Below, in pieces: positions 13,311-51,722 of a stretch of 64,000 bases of DNA. The DNA comes from Candidatus Woesearchaeota archaeon (GTDB lineage Archaea; Nanobdellota; Nanobdellia; Woesearchaeales; JAFGPW01). The stretch is from contig JAFGPW010000006.1 of the NCBI GenBank assembly GCA_016935985.1, positions 89,047 through 153,046 on the forward strand, given 5' to 3'. The notes under the pieces were generated by a model that saw nothing but the letters and a program-made list of their open reading frames with translations, was not told the DNA's origin and did no database searches. A program made the translations under genes and the position numbers. Every line of letters begins with the position of its first letter. The stretch's first letter is position 1.

Positions 13311-13376
13311 GGTGGCAGGAGGAAGGTGCGAACTATATTTAAGGCTTTCTATTTAGTGCCACTTTATAGTGACAAA

Positions 13377-13643
13377 TTAATGGACAGAAGGTGCGGTGGC
13401 ACCTGTCCTCGCCGCGAGAAGGGTCCAGACACCCCAGCCGATCACGATCGAGACCGTGATGACGAAGCCGAGCATGAGGTCAGGGACCGTGAACGAGAGG
13501 AGCTCTGCGTTCCAGGCGTGGTCGATCACGCCGAAGGCGGCGGCGCCGTAGAGGAGCAGTGAGAGCTTGGAGTGGTCCTTCCCGCGCCCGAACAGGCCGG
13601 AATGGAGTATAGCGGTGAGGAGCGGGACGACGTAGCATGCCAT
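13377..13643 (-). CDS. Small membrane protein (2 predicted TM helices)
   Basis: 88 aa, two hydrophobic helices. Confidence 0.4.
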   Translation of the reverse strand: MACYVVPLLTAILHSGLFGRGKDHSKLSLLLYGAAAFGVIDHAWNAELLSFTVPDLMLGFVITVSIVIGWGVWTLLAARTGATAPSVH

Positions 13644-13658
13644 GGGAATCCACCTCTT

Positions 13659-14663: not shown

Positions 14664-14757
14664 TTAATAAATAAAGATACTATTTAAATATTTCGCAATA
14701 TTAAGTAAAAATTAATGATAAAATATATATTTCTATAAGTCTCTATATAGTAGTAAT
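14664..14757. promoter_or_regulatory. AT-rich divergent promoter/operator region between lrp and the alaE-like gene
   Basis: ~95 nt of >80% AT (taaataaagatactatttaaatatt...ataaaatatatatttctataag) in a ~63% GC genome; multiple TATA-like elements on both strands. Confidence 0.5.
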
Positions 14758-15282: not shown

Positions 15283-15435
15283 TCACTTCAGGACATGGCC
15301 GCAGGTGTTGCAGACATGGGCCATCTTCTCCTCGTCGAAGGTGGTCGTGATGCCGTACTCTATCTTGGACTCGCACTTCGGGCAATGGGGCTCCAAGTGC
15401 TGCACAGAGTTGAAGAAATTGAACTCCCCGACCAT
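15283..15435 (-). CDS. Small zinc-ribbon protein (50 aa; CPKC...CNTC)
   Basis: Manual translation: MVGEFNFFNSVQHLEPHCPKCESKIEYGITTTFDEEKMAHVCNTCGHVLK*. Below the track's size cut-off; replaces the shadow ORFs 15254-15523(-) and 15295-15498(+). Confidence 0.45.
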   Translation of the reverse strand: MVGEFNFFNSVQHLEPHCPKCESKIEYGITTTFDEEKMAHVCNTCGHVLK

Positions 15436-15537
15436 GTCTCCGAACCCATAGACTATCCACTATATCGTTTAGTAAGGAAAAGGGGGATTCAAGTATAAAT
15501 ACTTTTCGGAAAAAAAACCGCACGAGCCACCCACGGT

Positions 15538-15550
15538 AGTTTTATATACG
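15538..15550 (+). promoter_or_regulatory. TATA box (gttttatatacg) upstream of the polB-like gene
   Basis: Located ~25 nt upstream of ATG 15572. Confidence 0.45.
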
Positions 15551-15571
15551 CAGCCAGCCACCCATCCCTCG

Positions 15572-18073
15572 ATGCCGCAGATAACCTTCTTCCTGATAGA
15601 CCTCTTCTACAAGGTGATAGCCGGAAGGCCGACCGTCGTCCTCTATGGCAAGACCCCCCGGCGGGCGCCCATCCTCGTCCATGACACGAGCTTCGAGCCG
15701 TACCTGCTCGCGCGGATCCATCCCTCGAGCTACAACGATTTCGTCGCCAGGGTGAAGAAGCTCGCCTGGACCGAAGAGGAGCGGCGCTATGCGGTGACGA
15801 GGACCGAGCTCGTGAAGCGGAAGGTCGACGGCTACGCGATGCAGCTCATCAAGGTGCACGGCAATGTCCCGAAGGCGGTGGGGCTCATCAAGAACGAGAT
15901 ACAGGGATGGGATATCGTGCAGTCGGTCTACGAGCACGACGTCTCGCTCAAGCGGAGCTATCTCATCGACAAGGGCATCTTCCCGCTCCGGCAGGTGACC
16001 GCGTCCGGCGACTTCATCAGGACCAGGAGCAAGGTGCAGGCATTCCAGGCGGTCAGGGTGGAGCCTGCCGGCGACGAATTCTACCCCGACCCGTCGATCC
16101 TCGCGATGGATGTCGGCACCATGCTGCAGGCAGAGCAGCAGGCGCTCGGGACCGAGAACCCGATCGTGCTCATCTCACTCTACAGCGAAGGGTACCGCAA
16201 GGTGATCACCTGGAAGCGGCACGAGAACGCGAAGGACTATGTCGAGTTCGTGGGGAGCGAGCACGACCTGATCATGCGGTTCAAGGACCTCATCGACCGA
16301 CTGCGGCCTGACATCCTCGTCGGCTTCCATTCCGACATGTTCGACCTGCCGTACCTCATCGCGCGCGCCAGGAAATACAGCATCCGGCTCGACATCGGCA
16401 TCGAATTCTCCCCACCCAGGGTCAGGAAGAACCCGCGGAGCGTGATGATCGCGGGCATCAACCACATCGATCTCGCGAACCTCGGCCGCGGCCTCTATCC
16501 CGAGCTGCTCGGCCTCGAGGAGTTCGACCTCGAGAGCGTCAGGCGCGTGCTCCTGAAGGCCGAGCCGCCGGAGACTGGCCAGAGAGTCCTCGTCAAGGAT
16601 GCGCCCGCCCCTGAGACCAACGCCGCTTCGCTCTGCGCGAAGGAGCACGAGCACGCGCGGCTGATATTCACCCTCAGCCACCGGCTCATGCCCTACCTCT
16701 TCGAGGTGGTGCGCCTCGTCGGCTTTACTCCCTACTCGGTCGCGAAGATGAACACGAGCATGATCGTCGAAGCGTACCTCATGCGCCAGACCCGCCAGTA
16801 CGACGAGGTCATCCTCAGGCGGCCGGGCAGGGGCCTGATCGAGCAGCGGTCAGGGACCGGCGTCCGGACGACCGTCCTCAAGGAGGCTGAGGAGGGGATC
16901 TCAAGCCAGGTCGCGCTCGTCTCCTACGCGAGCAGCTATCCCCATATCATCATCGAGCACAACATCTCCATGGGCGCGCTCAGGTGCCATTGCTGCAGGC
17001 GCGACGACCGGATGGTGCCTGACCTTGAGGAGGAGACCTGGTTCTGCCAGAACCGCCGCGGCTTCATCCCGCACGTGGTGCAGGCGCTCCTCTCGCGGCT
17101 CGAGACGATCGAGGCGATCATCGCGTCGGGCAGGAGCTCTGACCTGCTGCGGATACGGAAGGCGACGATCGAGCAGCTGCTCGCGAGCTCGCACATGGCA
17201 TTCTCCCATACCCATGCGAGATGGTATTCCTACCACTGCGCCCAGGCGGTGCACCGCTACGCGGCGTTCTACACGACGCATATCAGGAAGCGTCTCGAGG
17301 AGAAGGGCATCAGGGTTCTCTACGCGACCGAGTCGCAGCTGCACGTGTCGCTCGAGGGCAGCGGCCTCAACTGGCTCAGGCTCGCGCTCGAGGGGGCTGA
17401 GAGGAGCTACCCCCGCGTGCTCGTCTCGTCCCTTGCAGGACCGTACCTCAAGGCCCTCTACCGGACCGAGAAGGAGGGCGACCGGACGAGGACCGGCTAC
17501 GCGCTCATGGACGACGACGGCACGCTCACGCTCTCCGGCCTCGGGCCCCAGACGCGCACGCTTCCGCCGATCGCAAGGCTCGCCCTGGAGCAGGTCATCT
17601 CCATCCTCTTCAGGCAGGCTGACCGCGAGAAGGCGGCGACCTACATCCGCACGCTCATCAAGCAAGTGAGACAGAAGACCGTGCCTAAGGAGCTGATGAC
17701 GATCACGACGGCGCTCTCGAAGGACATCGACGAGTACGACACCGTCGCCCCGCACGTCGCGGTGGCGAAGCGGATGCGCAGCATCGGAATCCCGGTCGAG
17801 GCCGGGCACACGATCAGCTATATCGTCACCGCAGGCCCTGACAAGGTAGGCCAGCGCGCCCGACTGCCCAGCGAGGTCGCTCCCGGCGGCTATGACCCTG
17901 AGTATTATATCGAGAGCCACATCCTCCCCGCGATCGAGCCGATCCTCGGCATCGTCGGCATGACCCGCGAGGACCTCGAGCTCGACCGCGAGCAGGCGAC
18001 GCTCGGCTCGTTCGTCGAGGGTGAGGGGGAAGGGGATAGGGGAGAAAAGAGGGGGACGGGAAGGGATCCCTAG
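15572..18073 (+). CDS. polB: Family B DNA polymerase homologue with catalytic motifs disrupted (predicted inactivated PolB derivative)
   Basis: 833 aa with PolB architecture: Exo II FDLPYL retained; Exo I FDIET replaced by AMDVGT; motif A DxxSLYPSII replaced by LVSYASSYPHII (Asp lost); motif C YGDTDS replaced by YATESQ (both Asp lost). Confidence 0.8.
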   Translation: MPQITFFLIDLFYKVIAGRPTVVLYGKTPRRAPILVHDTSFEPYLLARIHPSSYNDFVARVKKLAWTEEERRYAVTRTELVKRKVDGYAMQLIKVHGNVPKAVGLIKNEIQGWDIVQSVYEHDVSLKRSYLIDKGIFPLRQVTASGDFIRTRSKVQAFQAVRVEPAGDEFYPDPSILAMDVGTMLQAEQQALGTENPIVLISLYSEGYRKVITWKRHENAKDYVEFVGSEHDLIMRFKDLIDRLRPDILVGFHSDMFDLPYLIARARKYSIRLDIGIEFSPPRVRKNPRSVMIAGINHIDLANLGRGLYPELLGLEEFDLESVRRVLLKAEPPETGQRVLVKDAPAPETNAASLCAKEHEHARLIFTLSHRLMPYLFEVVRLVGFTPYSVAKMNTSMIVEAYLMRQTRQYDEVILRRPGRGLIEQRSGTGVRTTVLKEAEEGISSQVALVSYASSYPHIIIEHNISMGALRCHCCRRDDRMVPDLEEETWFCQNRRGFIPHVVQALLSRLETIEAIIASGRSSDLLRIRKATIEQLLASSHMAFSHTHARWYSYHCAQAVHRYAAFYTTHIRKRLEEKGIRVLYATESQLHVSLEGSGLNWLRLALEGAERSYPRVLVSSLAGPYLKALYRTEKEGDRTRTGYALMDDDGTLTLSGLGPQTRTLPPIARLALEQVISILFRQADREKAATYIRTLIKQVRQKTVPKELMTITTALSKDIDEYDTVAPHVAVAKRMRSIGIPVEAGHTISYIVTAGPDKVGQRARLPSEVAPGGYDPEYYIESHILPAIEPILGIVGMTREDLELDREQATLGSFVEGEGEGDRGEKRGTGRDP

Positions 18074-21442: not shown

Positions 21443-22399
21443 TCATGGATTGAGCATGTCCTGCAGGCAGTAGTACGCGGACCATGCCGCGAGCGCGCCT
21501 TCGCCGGCGCCGACCACCGCCTGCTTGTAGTCGGTGTCGGTTATGTCGCCCGCAGCGAAGACGCCCTTCACGCTCGTCTTCGCCTCGCGGTCGATCCGTA
21601 TCTCGCCCTTCTCGTTCATCGCGAGGCCGAGGTCCTGTGCCACCGTGTTCGCCGGGTCGGCGCCGATCTCGATGAAGAGGCCGTCGAGCGGCAGGTCATA
21701 GGATCCCTTGTAGGGCGTGTCGAGCACGACTTTCTCGACCTTTGATGCGCCCTTGATCGCGGTGACGTTCGTGGTGTAGATGACCTCGATCTTCGGGTTG
21801 TCCTGGATGTGCTTGACCGTGATGGGCTCTGCCCGGAGCCTGGCTTTCCGGTAGATCATGTAGACCTTGTCCGCATACTCGGAAAGGAGGAGCGCCGCCT
21901 GGGCCGCGCTGTCGGATCCGCCGACGACCGCGGCGGTCTTGCCGCCGTAGAAGGGCGCGTCGCAGGTCGCGCAGTAGTGCACACCCTTCCCCTTCAGCTC
22001 CCTCTCGCCCGGGACGCCGAGCTTGCGCCGTATCGTCCCGGTGGCGATGATGACCGTCCGCGTCCGGTAGCTCCCCTTGTCGGTCGTGATGACGAAGAGG
22101 TCGCCGTCCTTCTTCGCGCCGGTGACGTTCTCGTCCGATACTGGCACCCTGAAGTGGTCCAGGTGCTCCTTGAACCTCATCATGAGCTCGAAGCCGGAGA
22201 TCGAGGAGTAGCCAGGGTAGTTCTCGACCTTGTGAGCCTCGTTGAGGAGGCCGCCGACCTCCCTGCCGAACACCTTCGTCCGCATGCGATAGCGCGCCGC
22301 GTAGATCGCCGCGGTCATGCCGGCGGCGCCGGCGCCGATGATGACGGTGTCGTACGTGCCGCTCTTCTTCGTGCTCTGTGATGGCTCCATAGAAGTCAC
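21443..22399 (-). CDS. trxB: Thioredoxin-disulfide reductase
   Basis: FAD motif GAGAAGMTAAIYAA, redox CATC motif (HYCATCDAPFY), NADPH motif GGSDSAAQAAL. Confidence 0.9.
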   Translation of the reverse strand: MTSMEPSQSTKKSGTYDTVIIGAGAAGMTAAIYAARYRMRTKVFGREVGGLLNEAHKVENYPGYSSISGFELMMRFKEHLDHFRVPVSDENVTGAKKDGDLFVITTDKGSYRTRTVIIATGTIRRKLGVPGERELKGKGVHYCATCDAPFYGGKTAAVVGGSDSAAQAALLLSEYADKVYMIYRKARLRAEPITVKHIQDNPKIEVIYTTNVTAIKGASKVEKVVLDTPYKGSYDLPLDGLFIEIGADPANTVAQDLGLAMNEKGEIRIDREAKTSVKGVFAAGDITDTDYKQAVVGAGEGALAAWSAYYCLQDMLNP

Positions 22400-22481
22400 C
22401 TGCGTACTGGAAGGCCGGAATGGTGAGGTGGTATATAAAGGTTGTGAAAACGGTTTGCACAGCCAAGGGAAAGAGATAAAA

Positions 22482-23207
22482 ATGAGGAGACACCAAGTTT
22501 ACATGAGACCCATGGTCATGTCGATCCAACTGCCGGCTATTTTCGTCAATTTCAAGACCTATGAGAAAGCGACGGCAGACCGGGCAGAGGCTCTCGCCCG
22601 CATCTGCCAGCAGGTTTCGCACGAGACCGGCGTGCAGGTAGTCGTCGCAGTCCAGGATGCCGACATCTATCGTGTCTCGAGAAGGGTTACCATCCCTGTC
22701 TTCGCCGAGCACATCGATCCGGTGGGGTATGGGTCCTATACCGGCCAGATCATCCCTGAGGCGGTCAAGCTCAATGGCGCGCAAGGGACCATCCTCAACC
22801 ATTCTGAAGACCGGGTGCGGCTCGATGTGCTCGAGACAGCTATCAGGCGAGCGCATGAGGTCGGATTGATAACCCTCGCGTGCGCGAACACGCCCGAGGC
22901 CGCCGCTTCGATCGCCGAGCTCGGTCCTGACCTCATCGCCGTCGAGCCGCCTGAGCTCATCGGGTCAGGACGATCGGTCTCGAAGGCGAAGCCTGAGGTC
23001 ATCACTGACACGCTCGCGCGGGTGCGCAAGGTCGCGAACATCCCGGTCTTGTGCGGCGCCGGAATCGTCGACGCCGATGACGTCCGCCGGGCCATCGCTC
23101 TCGGCGCGCGCGGGATCCTCGTCGCGAGCGCGGTGACGAAGGCGAAGGATCCGGAGAAATCTCTTAGGGACCTCGCGAGAGGGTTCTCGAGAATCGAACA
23201 TGCCTAA
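22482..23207 (+). CDS. tpiA: Triosephosphate isomerase (archaeal type)
   Basis: AIFVNFKTYEKAT...ILNHSEDRV...AVEPPELIGSG matches archaeal TIM. First ATG after the TATA at ~22430; alternative starts at 22512/22518. Confidence 0.85.
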   Translation: MRRHQVYMRPMVMSIQLPAIFVNFKTYEKATADRAEALARICQQVSHETGVQVVVAVQDADIYRVSRRVTIPVFAEHIDPVGYGSYTGQIIPEAVKLNGAQGTILNHSEDRVRLDVLETAIRRAHEVGLITLACANTPEAAASIAELGPDLIAVEPPELIGSGRSVSKAKPEVITDTLARVRKVANIPVLCGAGIVDADDVRRAIALGARGILVASAVTKAKDPEKSLRDLARGFSRIEHA

Positions 23208-23824
23208 CCGATCTCTATATAGAGCTTATAGGCATTGTTGCCGTAGCTCTCCATGTTCGCGATGTCACACCCTGTCGGCTGCATACGCGGACAGGTCTTC
23301 ACAGTCACGGTGAATGCGAAGACATCGCTGCAGAATCCTTCATCATCGGCATCAATCTTGATGATGAATGAACTCTTCGCATTATTCTCGATGGTAGACG
23401 ATATCGAGACCTCATCCAGGGGGGTGACTATGGTCCGCTGATCAGTGATAGTCTGCATGACGAAATCTTGGGCATAGCAGCCCGCGACCTCCGACGGTTT
23501 GATGGTAATCCTGAAGTCACGCGTCTGACCTAAGACATTCATGACACCGATCGCGAAGGTGGACGCAGCGCCAGGACGGACGGTCTTGCGCGAGAGCGGG
23601 ATGGCGACACGCTCTCCCCTGTCCAGCAGACGTCTTATCTGCATCTCGGTCTGCGAGTCGACGTCCGCCTTGAGGCCTTCTGCTTTCTGGAAGAATGTCC
23701 GTGCGAACGAGATTCCCAGGCCGAAGACGACGACGGCGAGGACGAGGATGACCACAAAGCCGACCGAGAGTTCGATGGCGCGCTTGTTCAATCTCATGCG
23801 GGCGCGGGCGGGCTTCATTTTCAT
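23204..23824 (-). CDS. Signal-anchored / pilin-like secreted protein with 4 Cys (paralogue of 25561-26052)
   Basis: N-terminus RLNKRAIELSVGFVVILVLAVVVFGLGISFA: positive n-region, ~23-aa hydrophobic stretch, resembling class III (prepilin/TadE-like) signals or a signal anchor; mature part contains 4 Cys. Confidence 0.45.
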   Translation of the reverse strand: MKMKPARARMRLNKRAIELSVGFVVILVLAVVVFGLGISFARTFFQKAEGLKADVDSQTEMQIRRLLDRGERVAIPLSRKTVRPGAASTFAIGVMNVLGQTRDFRITIKPSEVAGCYAQDFVMQTITDQRTIVTPLDEVSISSTIENNAKSSFIIKIDADDEGFCSDVFAFTVTVKTCPRMQPTGCDIANMESYGNNAYKLYIEIG

Positions 23825-25257
23825 CTGCTCAGGTCGACGAAGACGAACTGCTCGTCATAGGTATTGCTGAACACGGCATCGTAGAGTGTGTAGGGCTCGC
23901 CTGCCCGATCGTTCAGGGCGACGTTGTAATGCAACCGGAGCGTCATCTTCCCGGTCTGCTCTGCAGTCTCGAGCGAGAAATCTATGGGGACATCGACGAC
24001 AATCGTCTCCCGCAAGGTGTCGAGAGTGTTTCCGTTAAAGAGGTCCTTCTTGCCGAGCAGCTCCTCACCGTCGACCAGCTCGATTCGGGTCACTTCGAGC
24101 GGACCGACGAAGTTGTCCCGTATCCCCGACAGCTGGATGGATATCGAGACGCTGTCCTCTCCGACGTGGATTGGCTTTTGCGCGTTCAACTCGGTAATGA
24201 GCTGGTACTCGTCGGCAGAATCTGTATAGAGGAGCTTAGTTTCTGATCGAGTATCGTCCCGAATCCGTTTGACGCAGCTGTTCGAAACGCAACGCCATTC
24301 GAGATGGTCCGAGTAGTCCCCCTCGCAGGTGCCGCAGTCGACCGCACAGGAGCACTTGTTCTCCGTGCTCTCGCACTCGAGGTTCCCGCAGATGCCGGGA
24401 ATCGGCGTGTGGATGCAGAGGAGCTTACCCTCGACGCATTCGTCTTCGGTGGCGTCATTACCGTCATCGCAGAAATCAGAGGCGCAGGCATAGGGTGTCG
24501 TCGGTTTCAGGAAGATGACGTTTGGAAGCTTTAGGTCCCGGCTTGCGGAAAGGGGGTCATACGCAGCCCGGTTGGGCTTGATCTTCCCGTAGTCAACAGA
24601 AACGCGGATCGTGAGATCTCCCGTCGTTTCGATAGAGGAGAAGGCGCGGTCCTTGAGAATAATGCTCTTGGAATATCCATCCCCACGACGCTCGAGCAAC
24701 AGATTCAGGGGGATAGTCGCGAGGGTCTCTTCGACACCATCGATGGTCGTCGTCAGTTCTATCGATGTGATCGTGATGTCGTTCGCATAATCCAGGTTCC
24801 TGTCTGATATATAGGTTATACTCGAAAGTTCAACGGTAAGGTTGAGATAGTTAGAGAACAGGTTGAAGGGGTTCGCATACCCTGCGGTGACCTTCAGCTC
24901 GAATCCCTCAAATTGCATCTTGGTCGCTACTTGTTCCTTATCGATGAGGTCCTTCACGATGTCCATGACACATTCGTCATTGACGCATAGCGTCTGGAAA
25001 TAGCGGCTCTCACTCACGCCTTCGCACGCTCCCACGTCCTCGGGGCAGCTGCACTTGGTCTCGTTCCTGTCGATGAGGCCGTTGCCGCAGCAGTTAAGGA
25101 GGGGCGAATAGGTGCAGATGCCCTTCACGCACTTGACGGTGTGGCAGGTCTTCTGGACGCAGTCGGCGTTCTGCTCGCATTCCGCCGGCCCGCAGCCGGC
25201 GAGGAGCAGGAGAACGGCCAGGGAGAATGCCAGGAGCGGGTATCTGATTGCCATCAC
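23821..25257 (-). CDS. Cys-rich secreted lipoprotein with internal duplication ([Cys-rich module + ~190-aa beta-rich domain] x2)
   Basis: Lipobox LLLAGC. Two homologous Cys-rich modules each ending KCSC...C..CEG (residues ~22-78 and ~266-322). 4-nt overlap with the downstream gene. Confidence 0.5.
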   Translation of the reverse strand: MMAIRYPLLAFSLAVLLLLAGCGPAECEQNADCVQKTCHTVKCVKGICTYSPLLNCCGNGLIDRNETKCSCPEDVGACEGVSESRYFQTLCVNDECVMDIVKDLIDKEQVATKMQFEGFELKVTAGYANPFNLFSNYLNLTVELSSITYISDRNLDYANDITITSIELTTTIDGVEETLATIPLNLLLERRGDGYSKSIILKDRAFSSIETTGDLTIRVSVDYGKIKPNRAAYDPLSASRDLKLPNVIFLKPTTPYACASDFCDDGNDATEDECVEGKLLCIHTPIPGICGNLECESTENKCSCAVDCGTCEGDYSDHLEWRCVSNSCVKRIRDDTRSETKLLYTDSADEYQLITELNAQKPIHVGEDSVSISIQLSGIRDNFVGPLEVTRIELVDGEELLGKKDLFNGNTLDTLRETIVVDVPIDFSLETAEQTGKMTLRLHYNVALNDRAGEPYTLYDAVFSNTYDEQFVFVDLSR

Positions 25258-25327
25258 AATCCCTTTTGAGGAAGAGAGGTATAAAAAGGTATCGGAATGA
25301 AAAGAGAAGAAAGGGAGGGGAAACCCC

Positions 25328-25549
25328 TCACTTGATGATCTCGTACTCCTTCACGATGAGCATCATGAAGAGTATGAGCACGATCGCGCCCGCGACCATG
25401 AACGAGAGCCCGCGGAGCACCTCGGTCGTCGTGCCGTTGACCATGACCCACATGCCGAAGGCCATGATGGCGAGCCCGAGCCAGAGGAACTTGTCGAGCA
25501 CCAGCTTCATGATCTCGAACTCTTCCGCCTGGGTTAAGCGTTTCTTCAT
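25328..25549 (-). CDS. Small membrane protein (2 TM)
   Basis: Coding-like part begins at MKKRLTQAEEFEIMKLV (ATG 25547-25549), 12 nt after the stop of the upstream gene; two hydrophobic helices. Confidence 0.35.
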   Translation of the reverse strand: MKKRLTQAEEFEIMKLVLDKFLWLGLAIMAFGMWVMVNGTTTEVLRGLSFMVAGAIVLILFMMLIVKEYEIIK

Positions 25550-25560
25550 GACGACCACCT

Positions 25561-26052
25561 TTAGGAAACCTGGACGACTATCTGCTTGGTCAGGCCTCCG
25601 CCGGCACCGATGGTGCACACCGACGATCCTGAACCGGTCATGTCAGCTGCCTCGACTACGACCTTGAAGCTTCTGAACGCTTCAGCAGGCACGGTCTGCG
25701 CAATGCCCGTGATAGGACTAGCAGGAGTTGCGGTAACGACTCCGCCCGTAGCGCATACGATCTGAGGAGTCATCGTTTGGTTTGATGTCGCGTCATTATA
25801 GATGTTCACTGGGATGACGCAGTCCTTGTTCTGGCTGCATTTAATCGTGTCAGAATAGACCACGACCGGCTCGTCCGCCGTCGCAGGGATGTTCGGCGGC
25901 TCGACCTCGAGCTTACCTTGCAGTTTCCCGAACATGCCTTTCGTGAACGCCAGGCCAAGACCGAGCATGGTGATGCCCAGCACCAGGACGACGATCGCGT
26001 TGACGGAAAGCTGGAGCGAACCGTCCTTGTTCCTTGCGAAAAACCTCATCAC
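25561..26052 (-). CDS. Signal-anchored / pilin-like secreted protein with 4 Cys (paralogue of 23204-23824)
   Basis: N-terminus RNKDGSLQLSVNAIVVLVLGITMLGLGLAFT shares the [RK]..LSV..VV.LVL...GLG..F pattern with 23204-23824. Confidence 0.45.
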   Translation of the reverse strand: MMRFFARNKDGSLQLSVNAIVVLVLGITMLGLGLAFTKGMFGKLQGKLEVEPPNIPATADEPVVVYSDTIKCSQNKDCVIPVNIYNDATSNQTMTPQIVCATGGVVTATPASPITGIAQTVPAEAFRSFKVVVEAADMTGSGSSVCTIGAGGGLTKQIVVQVS

Positions 26053-26281
26053 GCTTCACCTCTTTTCCATAGCTCAATGGTTTGGGTAGTACCGTAAATT
26101 CCGGGCATCGGTGATGCCATCGGGGAGCTTATCCCCTTTTATGATAATACTCTTTTATAAACTTTTCGGTAAAAATCCTCTAAAGGTTTATTCATTCATG
26201 AGTAAAGAAAACAGGAGGCTCCTCGTTTTCAGCAAAGGAAAACTTTTTAAATGAACATGTTTTTCTGAGGGCCGACAACCT

Positions 26282-26809
26282 ATGGCACGGCTCAGGAAAT
26301 TCAACGCGTACCGCCGGCTGGAGCGGCCGTACACCCGGAAGAGCAAGAAGAAGGGCAAGAACTACGTGCGCGCCTTCCCGAACAACAAGGTCGTCATGTT
26401 CGACATGGGCGACCCGAAGCGCGACTACGACTACCAGGTGGACCTCATCTCCAAGGACCCCCTCCAGATCAGGCACAACTCCATCGAGTCGGCGCGCCAG
26501 ACCGCGAACAAGGCGCTCGAGAAGGCGCTTGGCAAGAACCAGTACCACTTCAAGATCCGCATCTTCCCGCACCACGTGCTCAGGGAGAACCCGCTCGCCG
26601 CCGGCGCCGGCGCGGACCGCATGAGCACGGGCATGAAGAAGTCGTTCGGGAAACCTATCGGCCTCGCCGCGCGCATCCGGACCGGCCAGAAGCTCTTCAC
26701 CGTCAAGGTCATGAAGGGCCAGGTGAAGGCGGCGCAGGACGCGATGAAGCGGGCCGGCCACAAGGTGCCCTGCGCGTGCCAGATCGCGACGAGCCAGATC
26801 GCGAAGTGA
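26282..26809 (+). CDS. rpl10e: 50S ribosomal protein L10e (uL16)
   Basis: MARLRKFNAYRRLERPYTRKSKKKGKNYVRAFP is the canonical L10e N-terminus; TATA (cttttaaatg) ~35 nt upstream. Confidence 0.9.
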   Translation: MARLRKFNAYRRLERPYTRKSKKKGKNYVRAFPNNKVVMFDMGDPKRDYDYQVDLISKDPLQIRHNSIESARQTANKALEKALGKNQYHFKIRIFPHHVLRENPLAAGAGADRMSTGMKKSFGKPIGLAARIRTGQKLFTVKVMKGQVKAAQDAMKRAGHKVPCACQIATSQIAK

Positions 26810-46829: not shown

Positions 46830-48449
46830 ATGGCAGAGGCTGAGACGACGGCTCCTGCGCCCAAGGCGCAGGCCGATGCGGCGGCAGAGACCGCGCGCAG
46901 GAAAGGCACCTTCTACATCGACCTCCGGCCACGCCTGATGCGCCTCCCCTCCTTCCGGGAGAAGGAGCGAATCAACATCCGCTACCCGCTCATCTACCCC
47001 TACTCCTTCGCCCACATCTTCTGGGACGAGAAGAACAAGGAGCTCGTCTACTTCGTCGAGGAGCCGATCCTCAACGACACCGAGCGCGAGATCCTGAAGC
47101 TCATCCAGCTCGGGCTCGAGGAGATGATCAACGTCAGCTTCATCAAGGCGAAGGAGCTCAACATCATCCTCGACTACCTGGAGCGCAACGTCCAGTCGAT
47201 CCTCATCGAGCTCGGCACCAAGGTGAGCAAGGAGACCTACCAGAAGATGATGTATTACATCTACCGCGATGCGGTGGGCCTGAACCAGATCGAGCCGCTG
47301 CTCAACGACTACTACATCGAGGACATAGAGTGCAACGGGAAAGGGGTGCCCATCTACATCGTCCACCGCAGCTATGAGAACATGCGGACGAACATCGTGT
47401 ATCGCGACAACCAGGACCTGATCAACTTCATCGAGAAGCTCGCCCAGAAGGCGGGGCGGTACGTCTCCTACGCGAAGCCGCTGCTCGACGGCACTCTCCC
47501 CGACGGATCCCGCGTGAACGCCACCTACACGGACGACGTCACCACGCGGGGGCCCACCTTCACCATCCGCAAGTTCACGAAGGAGCCCTGGACGCCGATC
47601 CACCTCATCCAGAAGGGGACGGCGACCGCCGAGGTCTTCGCCTTCCTCTGGCTCGCGATCGAGCACAAGTTCAACATCATGTGCGTCGGCGAGACGGCGT
47701 CGGGCAAGACCACGTTCCTGAACGCGATCATCCACTTCATCCCGCCGGAGGCGAGGATTTGCTCGATCGAGGACACGCGCGAGATCAACATCGCGCACGA
47801 GAACTGGCTTCCCTCGGTCACGCGCTCGGGCTTCGGCATCCCGAACATCCTCGGCAAGATGTACGGCGAGATCACGCTCTTCGACCTGCTCAAGGAATCC
47901 TTCAGGCAGAACCCCGACTATGTCATCGTCGGCGAGATCAGGGGCGAGGAGGCGTACGTCCTCTTCCAAGGCATGGCATCAGGGCATCCGTCGTCGTCCA
48001 CGTTCCACGCGGCGAGCGTCGAGACGCTCGTGCGGCGCCTGCAGACCCCGCCGATCAGCCTCTCGCCCTCGCTCATCGAGTCGCTCGACATCGTGTGCGT
48101 GCTCACGCACATCAAGGACCAGGAGAAGTCGGTGCGCAGGCTGAAGGAGGTCGACGAGGTGATAGCGGTCAAGGACGCTGCGGGGGCCGTCGACTACAAC
48201 AGGGTCTTCCTCTGGGACCCGGCGCGCGATACCGTCCAGCTCAGGGGGCAGTCCTACATCCTGCAGCGGATGATCAAGCAGAGCGGGAAGACGATCCAGG
48301 ATTTCGGGTCGGAGCTCAAGCGGCGGACGCTGCTCCTATCGAAGCTCGCCGAGATGAACATCACCAACTACAAGGAAGTCAACCAGGTCCTCAACGCCTA
48401 CTACAAGAACCCGCAGGCGGTGCTGGACAATTACGGGATACAGGCCTGA
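46830..48449 (+). CDS. Type IV filament assembly ATPase (FlaI/ArlI-EpdL-TadA-like, VirB11 superfamily)
   Basis: Walker A CVGETASGKTTFLNAI, Walker B/Asp box DYVIVGEIRGEEA, His box; 539 aa. Confidence 0.85.
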   Translation: MAEAETTAPAPKAQADAAAETARRKGTFYIDLRPRLMRLPSFREKERINIRYPLIYPYSFAHIFWDEKNKELVYFVEEPILNDTEREILKLIQLGLEEMINVSFIKAKELNIILDYLERNVQSILIELGTKVSKETYQKMMYYIYRDAVGLNQIEPLLNDYYIEDIECNGKGVPIYIVHRSYENMRTNIVYRDNQDLINFIEKLAQKAGRYVSYAKPLLDGTLPDGSRVNATYTDDVTTRGPTFTIRKFTKEPWTPIHLIQKGTATAEVFAFLWLAIEHKFNIMCVGETASGKTTFLNAIIHFIPPEARICSIEDTREINIAHENWLPSVTRSGFGIPNILGKMYGEITLFDLLKESFRQNPDYVIVGEIRGEEAYVLFQGMASGHPSSSTFHAASVETLVRRLQTPPISLSPSLIESLDIVCVLTHIKDQEKSVRRLKEVDEVIAVKDAAGAVDYNRVFLWDPARDTVQLRGQSYILQRMIKQSGKTIQDFGSELKRRTLLLSKLAEMNITNYKEVNQVLNAYYKNPQAVLDNYGIQA

Positions 48450-48480
48450 CCGGCGGGAGGGCCAGGGGGGACGGGCACGC

Positions 48481-48681
48481 ATGAGGCTCGCTGAACTGGA
48501 AGAGAACATCGAACGCATGATAGCGACCATGGAATTCTACCAGGAGCTCCTCGCCACGAAGACGCTCGACGAGGACGGCTTCGAGGCGCTCCAGGTGAAG
48601 GCCCGCTACGCGAAGGAGCAGCTGCTGCGCCTCACCCTCACCAACACGAGGCTCATCAAGCGGATGGAGAAGGGGCTCTGA
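48481..48681 (+). CDS. Small coiled-coil protein (66 aa)
   Basis: Short ORF between the ATPase and platform genes. Confidence 0.3.
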   Translation: MRLAELEENIERMIATMEFYQELLATKTLDEDGFEALQVKARYAKEQLLRLTLTNTRLIKRMEKGL

Positions 48682-48684
48682 GGG

Positions 48685-50802
48685 ATGGACGAGAAGAGGT
48701 TCAAGGACATGAAGGGACGGGCCCTGCGGATGCTCGAGATCATCAGGGAAATCCGCGTCCTCGAGGCGTACAAGGTCAGGATCAGCGAGACCGCGCGGAC
48801 GATCGAGGAGAATTACCAGAAGGGCGTCTACGGCTACTTCAGGTACCAGAACCTGCTCCACGAGCACCTCAAGGACAAGGGCCTCAAGGAGTGGGTCGAT
48901 TACTACAACGCGAGCATCATGGAGCTCCTTGCCGAGACAGACTTCCTCAACGCCCAGGTCTTCTACGACGTCTACCATGACGAGACGCGGCTCTCGCTCA
49001 AGGCGCTCAGGGTCCATCGGGTAACGAGGAAGGAGCCTGAGCCCCATCTCCCGGGCTATCCGGTCGATCCCGGGAAGGTGAAGGAGGAGAGGGCGCGGCT
49101 CTTCAGGCCGGTCCTCAGGAAGAAGATAACGACCGGGCTCACGCACCCTGAGACGGCGAAGCCAGCTCCCGCACCGCCGGTACCCGCGCCGGCTCCGGCC
49201 GAGGCGGCCCCCCTGCCCCCGCACCGCCCGCGCCTCCCGTTCTGGCATCGCTTCAGGCTGTCGCTCAGGGACCTGCTCCATCTGAAGACTAAAGCCGGTC
49301 CGCGGGCTAAGCCCGGGACGAGGAAGGCTCCCGCACCGCCAGCGTCGGCTCCGCCGCCCGCGCCAGAGGCATTCGCGCAGGGGCCGGAGAAGGCGCAGGC
49401 CCGCATGCCGCCGAGCGGGCCGGAAAAGGAGCCGGAGTTCATGGACCTCGACATCGGCGACGCCGGGAAGGTCACGACCGAGGCGCCGGCCGAGAAGGAG
49501 GGAAAGCCCATCTTCATGATACGGCCGCGCGGCGCCGCCGACGTGCTCCCCTGGCTCGAGGAGGGGGCGCGGGCGCGCACCCCGACGCTCGGGGAGCGCA
49601 TCACCGCCGCGTTCAGGGGGAAGCGGCGGAAGAGGACGCTCTTCGAGGACCTGCACGAGGAGGAGCCTGAGGCCGGCGGCGAGCCCATCGGCCTGCAGTT
49701 CAACATCATCAGGATGGTGAAGCGGATGCTGTCCGAGCGCCAGCAGTACATGGGCACGAAGACCGAGATATCGCCGACGCTCCTCTCGCTGCGCCGCTAC
49801 CGCGAGGGCACCATCACCGAGGTTGGCAAGGAGGACGTGAACGCGACGCTGCTCGCGAAGGAGGCGAGGCGCATCAAGAGAATCATAGGGAAGGAGTCGC
49901 GGTTCTCCATCTACAACCCTTCCTCAATCGGCTCGATCGCGAACGTGCTCGTCCGCAGGATCAGCCTCTACTTCATCGACCAGTATCCCGAGTTCTTCAA
50001 GGCCTTCTACAACAACCTGCGGCTCGCGAACATCAGGATCCTGTCCAACACCTATGTCAACATGATGACGCTCGCGGTGCTCTCCTCGCTCGGCGTCTTC
50101 ACGACGTTCTTCGCCGTGTTCTTCTGGGTGCTCGGCTACCCGCCCCTGCAGATCCTCGCGCGCACGCTCCTCGCCTCGAGCCTGTTCGGCATCCTCTCCT
50201 TCGTCCTGTTCTACACCTACCCGATCAGCCGCATCAGGCAGCGCCGGCGCTCGATCAGGACGAACCTGCCGTTCGCGATCAACCACATGTCGGCGGTCGT
50301 GTCCTCGGGGGTCCCCCCTGACGCGATGTTCCGGCTGATCGTCGAGTCGAGCGAGTACGGCGAGATCGTCGTCGAGATCGAGAAGATCGTCGAGTACGTC
50401 GACCTCTTCGGCTACGACCTCCTCACCGCGGTGAACAGCGTCGCGCAGATGACGCCGGCCGACGAGCTGCGCGAGTTCTTCGCCGGCTTCGTCTCGACGA
50501 TCGAGTCCGGCGGCGACCTCAAGGACTACCTCCAGCAGAAGGCCGAGGAGGCGATGCTCTCGTACAAGCTCGAGCGCCAGAAGTACCTCGAGTCGATCTC
50601 GACCTATTCCGACATCTACACCGGCATCCTCATCGCCGCGCCGCTCTTCTTCGTGGTCGCGCTCTCGCTCGTCAGCATGCTCGGCGGGCAGATCGGCGGC
50701 ATGGAGATCAACACCGTCATCGCTATCGGGACCTATGCGGTCATCCCGCTGCTGAACCTCGGCTTCCTCGTGTTCCTGCAGCTGAACCAGCCGGAGGTGT
50801 GA
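48685..50802 (+). CDS. Type IV filament platform protein (T2SSF domain; TadB/EpdJ-like) with ~420-aa cytoplasmic N-terminal extension containing Pro/Ala-rich linkers
   Basis: C-terminal ~280 aa carry TM helices and a T2SSF-like cytoplasmic domain (LPFAINHMSAVVSSGVPPDAMF...DLFGYDLLTAVNSVAQ). Confidence 0.7.
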   Translation: MDEKRFKDMKGRALRMLEIIREIRVLEAYKVRISETARTIEENYQKGVYGYFRYQNLLHEHLKDKGLKEWVDYYNASIMELLAETDFLNAQVFYDVYHDETRLSLKALRVHRVTRKEPEPHLPGYPVDPGKVKEERARLFRPVLRKKITTGLTHPETAKPAPAPPVPAPAPAEAAPLPPHRPRLPFWHRFRLSLRDLLHLKTKAGPRAKPGTRKAPAPPASAPPPAPEAFAQGPEKAQARMPPSGPEKEPEFMDLDIGDAGKVTTEAPAEKEGKPIFMIRPRGAADVLPWLEEGARARTPTLGERITAAFRGKRRKRTLFEDLHEEEPEAGGEPIGLQFNIIRMVKRMLSERQQYMGTKTEISPTLLSLRRYREGTITEVGKEDVNATLLAKEARRIKRIIGKESRFSIYNPSSIGSIANVLVRRISLYFIDQYPEFFKAFYNNLRLANIRILSNTYVNMMTLAVLSSLGVFTTFFAVFFWVLGYPPLQILARTLLASSLFGILSFVLFYTYPISRIRQRRRSIRTNLPFAINHMSAVVSSGVPPDAMFRLIVESSEYGEIVVEIEKIVEYVDLFGYDLLTAVNSVAQMTPADELREFFAGFVSTIESGGDLKDYLQQKAEEAMLSYKLERQKYLESISTYSDIYTGILIAAPLFFVVALSLVSMLGGQIGGMEINTVIAIGTYAVIPLLNLGFLVFLQLNQPEV

Positions 50803-51722
50803 GGGTGGCGTTCAGGCTGCAGTTCGACCTCAGGCACTCCCTCACGATGGGGATGGGGCTGATCCTCATCGGGCTCGACGCCGTGTTCTTCTTCGGGACG
50901 CCCCTCTTCATCCCGCTGATCGTCGTCGCGGTGACACTCGGGTGGAGCCAGTACTGGATCGACTTCTTCAGGGAGCGGGCGGCGCAGGGCCAGTACGAGG
51001 CGCAGTTCGGCGAGTTCGTGCGGAACCTCGTCGCGGGCATCAAGTCGGGCATGCCGGTGTCGCGCGCGATCATCCACGTCGCGAAGAACGACTACGGAGC
51101 GTTGTCCCCCCATGTCAAGAAGCTCGCGAACCAGATCGAGTGGACGATCCCCGTGCACAAGGCGCTCGTCAACTTCGGCGCCGCGACGCGGAACCCGATC
51201 ATCGCGCGCGCGATATCGACGGTGATCGAGGCGGAGCAGAGCGGCGGCAACATCGAGGACGTGCTCGAGTCGATCACCATCTCGCTGATGGAGATCAAGA
51301 AGATCAAGCAGTCGCGCAAGGCCTCGATCCAGGGCCAGGTCATCCAGTCCTACATCATCTTCTTCGTCTTCCTCGGCGTGATGATCATCATCCAGAACCT
51401 GCTCATCCCCTACATCTCGAGCATGGAGGCGAGCGGGTTCGGCATCGGGGAGGGGGGAATCAACCTGGCGCAGACGCGCGCGGTCCAGATCGAGGAGTCG
51501 ATGGCGATCGACTACCGCTCGCTCCCGCGCTTCTTCGAGACCTTCGGGCTGTGGCTCGTCTCCCTCCACGGCATCTTCCTCTCGCTCACGCTCGTCCAGG
51601 GGCTGTTCGCCGGGCTCGTCATCGGCAAGCTCTCGGAAGGGGACATCCAGGCAGGCATCAAGCACAGCCTGATCCTGATGACCCTCGCCTTCTTCGTGAT
51701 CAGCCTGGCGCAGGGGTTCTGA
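50799..51722 (+). CDS. Second type IV filament platform protein (single T2SSF domain; TadC/EpdK-like)
   Basis: GTGA start overlapping the upstream stop; 307 aa, N- and C-terminal TM helices flanking a T2SSF-like cytoplasmic domain. Confidence 0.65.
   Translation: MRVAFRLQFDLRHSLTMGMGLILIGLDAVFFFGTPLFIPLIVVAVTLGWSQYWIDFFRERAAQGQYEAQFGEFVRNLVAGIKSGMPVSRAIIHVAKNDYGALSPHVKKLANQIEWTIPVHKALVNFGAATRNPIIARAISTVIEAEQSGGNIEDVLESITISLMEIKKIKQSRKASIQGQVIQSYIIFFVFLGVMIIIQNLLIPYISSMEASGFGIGEGGINLAQTRAVQIEESMAIDYRSLPRFFETFGLWLVSLHGIFLSLTLVQGLFAGLVIGKLSEGDIQAGIKHSLILMTLAFFVISLAQGF

What the first reader, a model, noticed from the sequence alone, without database searches (positions are those of the whole stretch)
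23204..26052. Cluster of two paralogous pilin-like/signal-anchored Cys proteins flanking an internally duplicated Cys-rich lipoprotein and a small membrane protein
Both flanking proteins share the N-terminal pattern [RK]..LSV..VV.LVL...GLG..F: a positively charged n-region followed by an ~23-aa hydrophobic segment. This resembles class III/TadE-like prepilin signals or signal anchors; each mature part has 4 Cys. Between them lies a 478-aa lipoprotein built of two copies of [EGF-like Cys-rich module + beta-rich domain]. The genes are tightly packed with 4-nt overlaps, suggesting a co-transcribed surface filament/adhesin unit. An Epd/Tad-like assembly ATPase and platform proteins lie ~20 kb downstream.
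Basis: partly seen in the sequence, partly recalled or inferred. Interest (0 to 1): 0.6.

Follow-up and report, generated by a model that had tools for sequence, protein, structure and literature searches.

The report
Unannotated pilin-like gene cassette in Woesearchaeota
This is a conserved but unannotated four-gene cassette of a tiny symbiotic-type archaeon (Woesearchaeota): two proteins built like type IV pilus subunits, a very small membrane protein and a cysteine-rich lipoprotein, most likely parts of a cell-surface filament or attachment structure.

Summary
The four genes exist as described, on the minus strand of a Ca. Woesearchaeota contig: pilA-like 25561-26049, a 73-aa two-helix membrane protein 25328-25549, a lipoprotein 23821-25254, and pilB-like 23204-23824. 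None matches a Pfam or NCBIfam family.

Both flanking proteins carry a short basic leader ending in [KR][GA], followed by a hydrophobic helix of about 22 residues. This motif is kept in 69/70 and 64/67 orthologues from 80 species. The two families are homologous over their full length (hhalign E=1.4e-17). AlphaFold gives helix plus beta-sandwich (pLDDT 90.6). The lipoprotein is a confident tandem duplication (pLDDT 93.7).

The core order pilA, small membrane protein, pilB recurs in at least 451 species genomes, usually beside rpl10e or tpiA. The lipoprotein is present in about one third of them and is always followed by pilB.

The class III (pilin-type) reading is therefore supported. The Epd/TadE label is not: there is no +1 Gln or +5 Glu. 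The cassette is never adjacent to the ATPase/platform genes (0/80 and 0/37 loci). In relatives that machinery carries its own canonical pilins.

Best reading: a stand-alone major-pilin locus, probably two transcription units. Cleavage and filament formation are untested. Verdict: new variant of a known kind.

The parts
25561..26049 (-). pilA-like gene (162 aa; NCBI JXB02_04750). It has a short basic leader (MRFFARNKDG|S), a 24-aa uncharged H-domain and a beta-sandwich with 4 Cys. It is the candidate major pilin.
   Evidence: ORF. 71 full-length homologues, all from DPANN archaea and all 'hypothetical'. N-terminal consensus KK[GA]SLSLSINAIVVLVLAITMLGLGLAFTKGMFGKL. AlphaFold pLDDT 90.6, with helix 12-46 and beta strands 62-161. 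The globular domain is a generic CARDB/MG/Ig-like sandwich. No Pfam hit; only a weak UpsA N-terminal hit at E=0.085.
25328..25549 (-). Small membrane protein (73 aa): a conserved amphipathic N-terminus (KKRLTQxEEFEIMKLVLDKFLW), two hydrophobic helices joined by a variable loop, and a C-terminal KEYEIIK.
   Evidence: Alignment A6 shows 49-64% identity, the most conserved protein of the cassette. At least 451 species genomes encode a relative. A pilin gene lies immediately upstream in 69/70 loci, and the pilA plus small-membrane-protein pair is duplicated as a unit in L022, L039 and L074. No Pfam or NCBIfam hit. AGGTGG lies 5 nt before the ATG.
25315..25329 (-). Terminator-like hairpin GAGGGGTTTCCCCTC followed by a T-rich tract, directly after the stop codon of the small membrane protein gene.
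   Evidence: Pattern scan and sequence. The number of such sites in the region is not above shuffled expectation, so this is suggestive only.
25280..25287 (-). TATA-like box TTTTTATA about 29 nt upstream of the lipoprotein ATG. This could be an internal promoter giving a near-leaderless lipoprotein-pilB transcript.
   Evidence: Read directly from the sequence. The inference rests on the usual archaeal TATA position near -26. Not tested.
23821..25254 (-). Lipoprotein (477 aa; JXB02_04740): signal peptide with lipobox LLAGC, then two copies of a 12-Cys module followed by a beta-sandwich.
23204..23824 (-). pilB-like gene. The longest ORF is 206 aa; NCBI starts it at 23818; orthologues favour ATG 23797 (MRLNKRA|IELSVGFVV...). 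It has a class III-type leader, an H-domain, a conserved helix (LDSQTExQI..LL..G..VAIP) and a beta-sandwich with 4 Cys.
   Evidence: ORF. Orthologue alignment A5. Homologous to the pilA family (hhalign E=1.4e-17). Family motif [KR]x[GA][IFLVM]ELSxNF in 64-67 of 67. Always follows the lipoprotein gene (21/21 loci), with an exact 4-nt overlap in 13/29 loci when longest-ORF starts are used.
26153..26161 (-). TATA-like box TTTATAAAA, with an A-rich BRE-like stretch upstream, about 105 nt before the pilA ATG. GAGGTGA at 26056-26062 is a Shine-Dalgarno-like site.
   Evidence: Read directly from the sequence. Function is inferred.
46830..51722 (+). Putative assembly machinery on the same contig: a FlaI-like ATPase (46830-48449) and a platform protein split into two genes (48685-50802 and 50799-51722). 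Any link to the cassette is inferred, not shown.
   Evidence: Pfam T2SSE and T2SSF x2. NCBIfam FlaI 417 bits, below the 550-bit cut-off; the two platform genes match the N- and C-terminal halves of FlaJ.

Best explanation
The cassette is a stand-alone structural locus for type IV pilin-like (class III signal) proteins of Woesearchaeota/Nanoarchaeota. It is made of two modules.

Proposed mechanism (inferred, not shown):
1. pilA and pilB are inserted into the membrane.
2. A PibD/FlaK-type peptidase removes their 5-12-aa basic leaders after the conserved Gly/Ala.
3. The nearly invariant hydrophobic helices then pack into a filament, or a short fibre, extruded by the FlaI-like ATPase and split platform encoded elsewhere in the genome.

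Proposed roles (inferred):
- pilA is the best candidate for the major subunit. It is often tandemly duplicated and has a very conserved H-domain.
- The 73-aa two-helix protein is a pilA-specific membrane partner. It may hold or deliver the pilin pool through its conserved cytoplasmic N-terminus.
- pilB, together with the optional and apparently translationally coupled disulfide-rich lipoprotein, forms a second module. It is probably a minor, tip or base component with an adhesive or anchoring role.

What is shown: the motif conservation, the homology between the two pilin-like families, the predicted fold, the synteny and the modularity.
For: - Leader motif: [KR][KR][GA] directly before an uncharged stretch of 22-24 aa in 69/70 pilA and 64/67 pilB orthologues from 80 species genomes, with leaders of 4-10 aa. 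Experimentally studied archaeal pilins are cut at KG|Q, KA|I, RA|L, RA|V and DA|V (PMC4371748).
- Conservation: the pilA helix shows 83% mean pairwise identity against 40% for the rest of the protein.
- Fold: the AlphaFold model is a helix plus beta-sandwich 'lollipop', pLDDT 90.6.
- Homology: the pilA and pilB families are homologous.
- Only candidates in the window: they are the only ORFs with such N-termini.
- Machinery: the window holds the ATPase and split platform with no pilin gene beside them.
- Synteny: pilA, small membrane protein, (lipoprotein), pilB.
- Modules: the pilA plus small-membrane-protein pair duplicates as a unit, and the lipoprotein plus pilB pair relocates as a unit in L065, L070 and L071.
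- Peptidase: a Peptidase_A24 gene lies 88 nt upstream of pilA in L088 and 2 kb upstream in L087.
- Small membrane protein: a 2-TM protein of the same architecture is embedded among the canonical pilin genes of the ATPase operon in relatives. It may be distantly related (hhalign probability 58%, E=1e-4).
- Precedent: stand-alone major pilin genes are known in H. volcanii and M. maripaludis (PMC4371748; bioRxiv 10.64898/2026.04.22.720090).
- Lipoproteins: lipoproteins and AliA occur in DPANN (PMC12462473).
Against: - No hit to curated archaeal pilin N-terminal models (TIGR02537, PF07790, PF04021). A neighbouring canonical pilin does pass TIGR02537.
- The cassette is never next to the ATPase or platform genes: 0/80 and 0/37 loci.
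- The machinery has its own set of 3-6 canonical pilins with quite different H-domains (KKAVSPLIATVLL..., KGQIWISA...). It does not obviously need further subunits.
- In W_163 itself, Asp replaces Lys/Arg before the Gly.
- No solved archaeal pilin appears among the top fold matches; only generic sandwiches do.
- Two peptidase genes within 8 kb in 80 loci is close to what chance would give.
- The strong H-domain conservation could instead reflect packing against the conserved small membrane protein within the membrane.
- Cleavage, filament formation and expression are all untested.
Confidence: 0.55

Rival explanations
1. A membrane-anchored surface complex, not a filament. pilA and pilB stay in the membrane through their N-terminal helix, whether cleaved or not. 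The pilA helix packs against the two helices of the small membrane protein. The lipoprotein joins from the outer leaflet. Together they display Ig-like and Cys-rich domains on the cell surface, for example for host contact or envelope organisation. This would resemble the non-pilin class III substrates of Sulfolobus (the bindosome).
For: - pilA and the small membrane protein are almost always adjacent and are duplicated as a pair.
- Both the pilA helix and the small membrane protein are unusually conserved, as expected for a specific intramembrane interaction.
- The cassette is never linked to the ATPase/platform genes.
- The machinery has its own canonical pilins.
- No hit to curated pilin N-terminal models.
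Against: - The near-invariant Gly/Ala after Lys/Arg at the start of the H-domain has no obvious role in a plain anchor, but is the defining feature of prepilin peptidase substrates.
- Tandem pilin paralogues and two related pilin families are typical of filaments.
- In Sulfolobus even bindosome assembly uses a type IV pilus-like ATPase and platform (my own knowledge; NCBIfam has BasE/BasF models).
Confidence: 0.27
2. A short pseudopilus or secretion-type assembly. pilA and pilB form a short piston or stalk that exports or positions the Cys-rich lipoprotein or other cargo, rather than a long adhesive pilus.
For: - The lipoprotein gene, where present, is always followed by pilB and is apparently translationally coupled to it.
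- The ATPase and split platform are present on the contig.
Against: - Two thirds of the species lack the lipoprotein gene but keep pilA, the small membrane protein and pilB. The lipoprotein therefore cannot be the reason the cassette exists.
- No other cargo or secretin-like component is seen.
Confidence: 0.1
3. Ordinary Sec-secreted or signal-anchored proteins whose resemblance to pilins is coincidental.
For: - No pilin domain model matches.
- The globular domains are generic CARDB/Ig-like sandwiches, as in many secreted archaeal proteins, including two others in this window.
Against: - The hydrophobic stretch is 22-24 aa and its sequence is highly conserved, unlike Sec h-regions.
- The [KR][GA] motif is conserved in about 97% of orthologues.
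- The mature domains match no secreted enzyme.
- Type IV pilus machinery is present on the contig.
Confidence: 0.06

Closest known systems
Haloferax volcanii adhesion pilins PilA1-PilA6 (PibD substrates)
   Same: - The pilin genes stand alone, away from the pilB/pilC biosynthesis genes.
- There are several paralogues with an almost identical H-domain.
- The leader ends in [RD][A] before the hydrophobic helix (PMC4371748).
   Different: - No sequence match: the PF07790/TIGR02537-type 'VSPVIG/ATVLL' N-terminus is absent.
- The mature start is S-L-S-L-S-I-N or I-E-L-S-x-N-F.
- The cassette carries a dedicated 73-aa 2-TM protein and often a Cys-rich lipoprotein, neither of which is described for PilA1-6.
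Methanococcus maripaludis Epd pili (archaeal type IV filament 'system 1')
   Same: - The machinery is an ATPase plus two platform genes, and system 1 is reported in DPANN (bioRxiv 10.64898/2026.04.22.720090).
- The major pilin (EpdE) is encoded away from the main operon.
   Different: - Epd pilins are EppA substrates with +1 Gln and +5 Glu (KGQ|I...). The cassette proteins have +1 Ser or Ile/Phe and no +5 Glu.
- EpdE lacks a globular domain, whereas pilA and pilB have beta-sandwiches.
- It is the other pilin set of this genome (KGQVW..., KRGQMY...) that looks Epd-like.
Sulfolobus class III signal proteins: Ups/Aap pilins and bindosome sugar-binding proteins
   Same: - A [KR][A]-type PibD site before a hydrophobic helix.
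- A weak NCBIfam UpsA N-terminal hit for W_163 (E=0.085).
- The bindosome shows that class III proteins need not form long pili.
   Different: - The hit is far below the cut-off.
- There is no substrate-binding domain.
- The gene context differs.
Bacterial Flp/TadE/TadF (Tad pili)
   Same: - Split platform (TadB/TadC-like) and a small ATPase.
- The subunits carry a short leader.
   Different: - The Flp/TadE motif G|xxxxE[YF] is absent.
- The organism is an archaeon.
- The subunits have Ig-like globular domains.

Membership tests
Archaeal type IV pilin-like proteins (class III signal peptide substrates) | A short basic leader ending in [KRD][GAS], directly followed by an uncharged hydrophobic stretch of about 20 aa | tested here: met
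   In orthologues from 80 species, pilA has [KR] 69/70, [KR] 63/70 and [GA] 69/70. pilB has [KR] 67/67 and [GA] 64/67. Leaders are 4-10 aa. W_206 reads KRA|IELSV. W_163 reads KDG|SLQLSV, with Asp at -2 as in H. volcanii PilA1-3.
Archaeal type IV pilin-like proteins (class III signal peptide substrates) | Match to the curated N-terminal domain models (TIGR02537 arch_flag_Nterm, PF07790 Pilin_N, PF04021 Class_IIIsignal) | tested here: not met
   No hit for W_163, W_206 or any of the 69 pilA family members, even at E<=1. A canonical pilin just outside the window does pass TIGR02537 (26.8 bits against a cut-off of 20).
Archaeal type IV pilin-like proteins (class III signal peptide substrates) | Long N-terminal alpha-helix carrying a globular (usually beta-sandwich) domain, with the helix more conserved than the globular part | tested here: met
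   AlphaFold model of W_163: helix 12-46 and sandwich 62-161, pLDDT 90.6. Helix 83% against 40% identity for the rest. W_206 was not modelled but aligns over its full length with the pilA profile.
Archaeal type IV pilin-like proteins (class III signal peptide substrates) | Specific fold similarity to a solved archaeal pilin or archaellin | tested here: inconclusive
Archaeal type IV pilin-like proteins (class III signal peptide substrates) | Leader removed by a PibD/FlaK/EppA-type A24 peptidase | not testable with these tools
   No A24 peptidase gene in the window or in the 10-kb flanks reached. The clade does encode one: it lies 88 nt upstream of pilA in L088 and 2 kb upstream in L087 (Pfam PF01478, E=8e-11 and 7e-13). 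Two in 80 loci is about chance.
Archaeal type IV pilin-like proteins (class III signal peptide substrates) | Genomic association with a type IV pilus ATPase and platform protein | tested here: inconclusive
   On the same contig, 21 kb away. Probably about 69 kb apart in the closed AR15-type genome, inferred from L064 and L110. Never within 8-10 kb: 0/80 and 0/37 loci. Genome-wide co-occurrence could not be computed.
Archaeal type IV pilin-like proteins (class III signal peptide substrates) | Polymerises into an extracellular filament | not testable with these tools
   Needs microscopy, biochemistry or multimer modelling.
Epd pilins / EppA substrates (DUF361-type) | +1 Gln and +5 Glu (KGQ|xSxEF) | tested here: not met
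   +1 is Ser (pilA) or Ile/Phe/Leu/Met (pilB). Glu, where present, is at +2.
Bacterial Flp/TadE/TadF pseudopilins | G|xxxxE[YF] processing motif | tested here: not met
   The motif is absent from both families.
Prokaryotic lipoproteins (lipobox) | [LVI][ASTVI][GAS]C at the end of an N-terminal signal peptide | tested here: met
   LLAGC in the window protein. The Cys is invariant in the alignments. A lipobox-like motif is present in 134/151 family representatives. Lipidation itself cannot be tested; DPANN are reported to have lipoproteins and AliA (PMC12462473).
EGF-like domain | Match to EGF-type domain models | tested here: not met
   No EGF family hit. Only sub-threshold hits to Dicty_CTDC (31/81 members, best E=2e-9) and Nodulin_late (36/81 members).

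The most novel reading that the evidence does not exclude
The cassette (pilA, small membrane protein, optional lipoprotein, pilB) encodes the principal surface filament of Woesearchaeota/Nanoarchaeota, one that has so far gone unrecognised. Its subunits use a divergent class III signal that the curated pilin N-terminal models tested here do not match. A dedicated 73-aa two-helix membrane factor and a disulfide-rich lipoprotein partner have no counterpart in described type IV filament systems. This would supply the 'missing' pilins noted for nanoarchaeal ATPases and a likely host-attachment organelle for a large uncultured DPANN lineage.
Probability: 0.35. Interest if true: 0.72.

Novelty: new variant of a known kind. 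Interest (0 to 1): 0.55.

Why it matters
DPANN archaea have very small genomes and are thought to depend on physical contact with hosts, yet their attachment structures are largely unknown. Makarova et al. 2016 (PMC4858521) noted that cognate pilins for one ATPase clade found in nanoarchaea could not be identified.

This cassette is kept in at least 451 species-level genomes, sits in a housekeeping neighbourhood, and is annotated only as 'hypothetical' with no domain hits. If its products are pilins, three things follow:
- They define new pilin families and a class III signal variant that the curated pilin models tested here do not match.
- They add two new accessory components: a 2-TM partner protein and a Cys-rich lipoprotein.
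- They give concrete targets for identifying filaments in cryo-ET or cryo-EM data and in metaproteomes of Woesearchaeota.

If they are not pilins, they are still a lineage-defining surface complex worth characterising.

Tried and rejected
- Pfam and NCBIfam scans of all four proteins, and of whole family alignments, gave no meaningful family.
- Profile searches of the pilA and pilB families against PDB sequences gave nothing significant. The best was a WxLIP Ig-like domain at E=0.04 for pilB.
- The 664-aa protein at 41473-43467 hit the pilB HMM. The match is only to a shared CARDB-like strand motif; the protein has a Sec signal and a C-terminal anchor, so it is not a pilin.
- The first comparison of the small membrane protein with the 112-aa membrane protein of the second pilin cluster gave hhalign probability 5%. 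With larger alignments it rose to 58% (E=1e-4). This is kept as a hint only.
- The search for a prepilin peptidase found none in the window or in the two 10-kb flanks that could be reached.
- An exact-sequence look-up of the 478-aa ORF failed because the deposited gene starts one codon later.
- The literature searches found no paper describing these families.

Full report
**What is there.** The window comes from a Candidatus Woesearchaeota (DPANN) metagenome-assembled contig of 162,994 bp. The four genes carry NCBI locus tags JXB02_04735 to JXB02_04750 and are all annotated as hypothetical. All lie on the minus strand:
- a 162-aa protein at 25561-26049, here called pilA;
- a 73-aa membrane protein at 25328-25549;
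- a 477-aa lipoprotein at 23821-25254;
- a protein of about 197-206 aa at 23204-23824, here called pilB.

The cassette sits between rpl10e (26282-26809, divergent) and the triosephosphate isomerase gene (22317-23207, convergent). None of the four proteins reaches a Pfam or NCBIfam family. The only hint is a sub-threshold hit of the pilA N-terminus to the Sulfolobus UpsA pilin model (E=0.085).

**Check of the observation.** The main claims hold:
- The two flanking proteins are 38% identical over their first 40 residues (E=5e-8) and not detectably similar beyond that in a pairwise comparison.
- Profiles built from their orthologues align over 149 columns with hhalign probability 98.9% and E=1.4e-17. 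They are therefore true, distant paralogues over helix and globular domain.
- Each has four Cys in the mature part.
- The two halves of the lipoprotein are 27% identical over 183 residues (E=1e-14), each with 12 Cys, and it has a lipobox LLAGC.
- A T2SSE ATPase and two T2SSF platform genes lie at 46830-51722.

Four corrections are needed:
- The 96-aa ORF is over-extended. The real small gene starts at ATG 25549 behind AGGTGG, as all orthologues show.
- Only the lipoprotein/pilB junction can overlap by 4 nt.
- The small membrane protein gene and the lipoprotein gene are about 73 nt apart.
- No EGF model matches the Cys-rich modules.

**Are the N-termini class III (prepilin-type) signals?** Four lines of evidence say yes.
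- The pilA family has at least 71 full-length members, all from Woesearchaeota or Nanoarchaeota. Its N-terminus is nearly invariant: KK[GA]SLSLSINAIVVLVLAITMLGLGLAFTKGMFGKL.
- I located 80 species-representative genomes through the small membrane protein. In them the residues before the hydrophobic stretch are [KR] (69/70), [KR] (63/70), [GA] (69/70) for pilA. For pilB they are [KR] (67/67), x, [GA] (64/67), followed by [IFLVM]-E-L-S-x-N-F. The nearest upstream Met lies only 4-10 residues away.
- This matches the logic of experimentally studied archaeal pilin sites: KG|Q, KA|I, RA|L, RA|V and DA|V (PMC4371748). W_163 itself has Asp at -2, which H. volcanii PilA1-3 also have.
- The helix is much more conserved than the rest of pilA (83% against 40% mean pairwise identity). 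AlphaFold2 with 69 sequences gives a long helix (12-46) carrying a beta-sandwich (62-161), at pLDDT 90.6.

Against membership:
- The curated N-terminal models (TIGR02537, PF07790, PF04021) do not match any member.
- The Epd/EppA signature (+1 Gln, +5 Glu) and the Flp/TadE signature are absent.
- Fold searches find only generic CARDB/MG/Ig-like sandwiches, not a solved archaeal pilin.

I therefore regard the proteins as a divergent family of class III-type proteins, not as Epd or TadE homologues. Cleavage itself is untested.

**The other two proteins.** The 73-aa protein is the most conserved member of the cassette (49-64% identity). It has an amphipathic N-terminus (KKRLTQxEEFEIMKLVLDKFLW), two hydrophobic helices joined by a variable loop, and a conserved C-terminal KEYEIIK. 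I infer that both ends are cytoplasmic.

**Comparative genomics.** The cassette is strongly conserved in gene order. In the 80 species loci:
- a pilin gene lies immediately upstream of the small membrane protein gene in 69 of 70 evaluable cases;
- a pilin gene lies downstream in 52 of 64;
- the lipoprotein gene lies between them in 21 of 64 and is then always followed by pilB;
- rpl10e is nearby in 43 loci.

The commonest architectures are pilA, small membrane protein, pilB (22 loci) and the same with the lipoprotein inserted before pilB (13 loci).

Two sub-modules emerge. The pair pilA plus small membrane protein is duplicated as a unit in L022, L039 and L074. The pair lipoprotein plus pilB is displaced together to the other strand, about 4 kb away, in L065, L070 and L071. 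With longest-ORF starts, the lipoprotein stop and the pilB start overlap by exactly 4 nt in 13 of 29 loci and lie within 8 nt in 22 of 29 (coordinates).

In the window, a hairpin (GAGGGGTTTCCCCTC) with a T-rich tail follows the small membrane protein gene. A TTTTTATA box lies about 29 nt before the lipoprotein ATG. This fits two transcription units, but it is only a pattern-level inference.

**Relation to the pilus machinery.** The ATPase is FlaI-like (417 bits, below the equivalog cut-off). The platform is split into genes that match the N- and C-terminal halves of FlaJ. This layout is described for archaeal 'system 1' (Epd-like) and some 4A systems, both reported in DPANN (bioRxiv 10.64898/2026.04.22.720090).

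No machinery gene lies within 8 kb of the cassette in any of the 80 loci. I also fetched 80 metagenomic loci around close relatives of the ATPase (50-68% identity). In the 37 loci of at least 8 kb, none contains a cassette gene. Thirty-two of them carry class III-type ORFs, typically 3-6 canonical pilin genes directly upstream of the ATPase on the same strand, with N-termini such as KKAVSPLIATVLLIAFAVALGAVVMNW, KKGQIWISAILY... and KRGQFYLIAA....

The same canonical set exists in this genome just beyond the right end of the window. It comprises proteins of 257, 146, 112, 220, 161 and 185 aa, plus adhesin-like proteins of 790 aa and more than 1428 aa. The ORF at 63590-63979 is the C-terminal part of the first. 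The 220-aa protein passes TIGR02537.

So the machinery has its own pilins, and the cassette is a separate, stand-alone locus. This is compatible with known biology. The major pilins of M. maripaludis and H. volcanii are encoded away from the assembly genes, whereas operon-encoded pilins tend to be minor (PMC4371748). It also leaves room for a non-filament role.

Two weak links tie the cassette to type IV pilus biology:
- A PibD/FlaK-type A24 peptidase gene lies 88 nt upstream of pilA in L088 and 2 kb upstream in L087. Two occurrences within 8 kb in 80 loci is about the chance expectation, though immediate adjacency is not.
- A small 2-TM protein with the same architecture and a VL(D/N)K motif is embedded among the canonical pilin genes of the ATPase operon in nine relatives. 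It shows borderline profile similarity to the cassette's small protein (probability 58%, E=1e-4).

**Most likely mechanism.** Confidence is about 0.55. The steps below are inferred:
1. pilA and pilB are membrane-inserted class III precursors.
2. An A24 peptidase removes the short basic leader after the conserved Gly/Ala.
3. The conserved helices assemble into a filament or short fibre, driven by the FlaI-like ATPase and split platform.

The proposed roles are also inferred. pilA would be the major subunit. The 73-aa protein would be its membrane partner. pilB, with the lipoprotein where present, would be a minor, tip or base module with an adhesive or anchoring function. What is shown is the motif conservation, homology, predicted fold, synteny and modularity.

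The main rival (about 0.27) is a membrane-anchored surface complex in which the pilA helix packs against the small membrane protein. That would equally explain the conservation of both. A pseudopilus that handles the lipoprotein (about 0.1) is weakened because two thirds of species lack the lipoprotein gene. Ordinary Sec proteins (about 0.06) are unlikely given the length and conservation of the hydrophobic stretch and the [KR][GA] motif.

**Novelty and verdict.** No paper in the searchable library describes these families. Makarova et al. 2016 noted that cognate pilins for one ATPase clade found in nanoarchaea could not be identified. The cassette is a new variant of a known kind: type IV pilin-like proteins with a divergent class III signal and two accessory proteins not described for type IV filament systems. 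It is conserved across a large uncultured lineage.

Its interpretation is partly supported: the pilin-like reading holds, while the Epd/TadE label, the single-operon model and the linkage to the machinery do not. Interest is 0.55.

Noticed in passing
window 63590-63979 (-), continuing beyond the window end (locus L091 6066-16007): A second pilin/adhesin cluster. It holds proteins of 257, 146, 112, 220, 161 and 185 aa, several with canonical class III N-termini (KRA|VSPLIATVLLIAF..., KHGQVWVSAILY..., KRGQMYIFAA...). It also holds Fn3/filamin-like proteins of 790 aa and more than 1428 aa. The 220-aa protein passes TIGR02537. In relatives this set lies directly upstream of the ATPase operon.
   Followed up: partly
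window 46830-51722 (+): The type IV pilus machinery operon holds only a FlaI-like ATPase and a platform protein split into two genes (N and C halves of FlaJ, with a 4-nt overlap). Unlike in most relatives, no pilin gene is adjacent.
   Followed up: partly
window 41473-43467 (+): A 664-aa protein with a Sec signal, several CARDB/NEW3/Fn3-like sandwiches, a very acidic region and a C-terminal transmembrane anchor. It is a candidate S-layer or surface protein.
   Followed up: partly
window 31081-32304 (+) and 2595-3020 (-): Two more predicted surface proteins: a 407-aa Sec-signal protein with a NEW3/CARDB-like domain, and a 141-aa lipobox protein (..LPFVAGC..) with no family hit.
   Followed up: no
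window 23204-26052 compared with its flanks; also 12000-16000: The pilA, lipoprotein and pilB genes have lower third-position GC (0.70-0.74) than neighbouring housekeeping genes (mostly 0.84-0.97; TIM 0.74); the small membrane protein gene (0.85) does not. GC in the 2-kb blocks covering the cassette (22001-26000) is 0.56-0.59, against about 0.62 for the window. A second low-GC stretch (0.53-0.58) lies at 12-16 kb.
   Followed up: no
L088 4934-5842 and L087 4625-5482: PibD/FlaK-type Peptidase_A24 genes lie next to the cassette in two other Woesearchaeota genomes: 88 nt upstream of pilA in L088 and 2 kb upstream in L087.
   Followed up: yes
L005 4265-4867: In one relative, a HicB-like antitoxin gene and two tiny ORFs on the opposite strand, plus a YgaP-like membrane protein gene, are inserted between the small membrane protein gene and the lipoprotein gene. 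This splits the cassette at the same junction where the window has the hairpin and TATA-like box.
   Followed up: no
pilA family alignment A2, residues about 47-61 of W_163: A strongly conserved acidic, proline-rich linker (VPEPDIPATADDPIV) sits between the helix and the sandwich. It is also present in the extra pilA-like protein of L007 (PPPTIPATSDEPIV). Its role is unknown.
   Followed up: no
loci L012, L015, L017, L025 and others; L028: Many species-representative MAGs that carry the cassette are titled 'uncultured Methanosarcinales archaeon', and one is titled 'Aminicenantes bacterium'. Given the gene content, these look like mislabelled or mis-binned DPANN contigs.
   Followed up: no
L093-L109, L115, L158 (for example L100 7116-7418): A conserved 2-TM protein of about 100 aa (..EKSRLNREKSMLVLNK..) is embedded among the canonical pilin genes upstream of the ATPase in relatives. 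Its counterpart in this genome is L091 7361-7699. It may be a distant paralogue of the cassette's 73-aa protein.
   Followed up: partly
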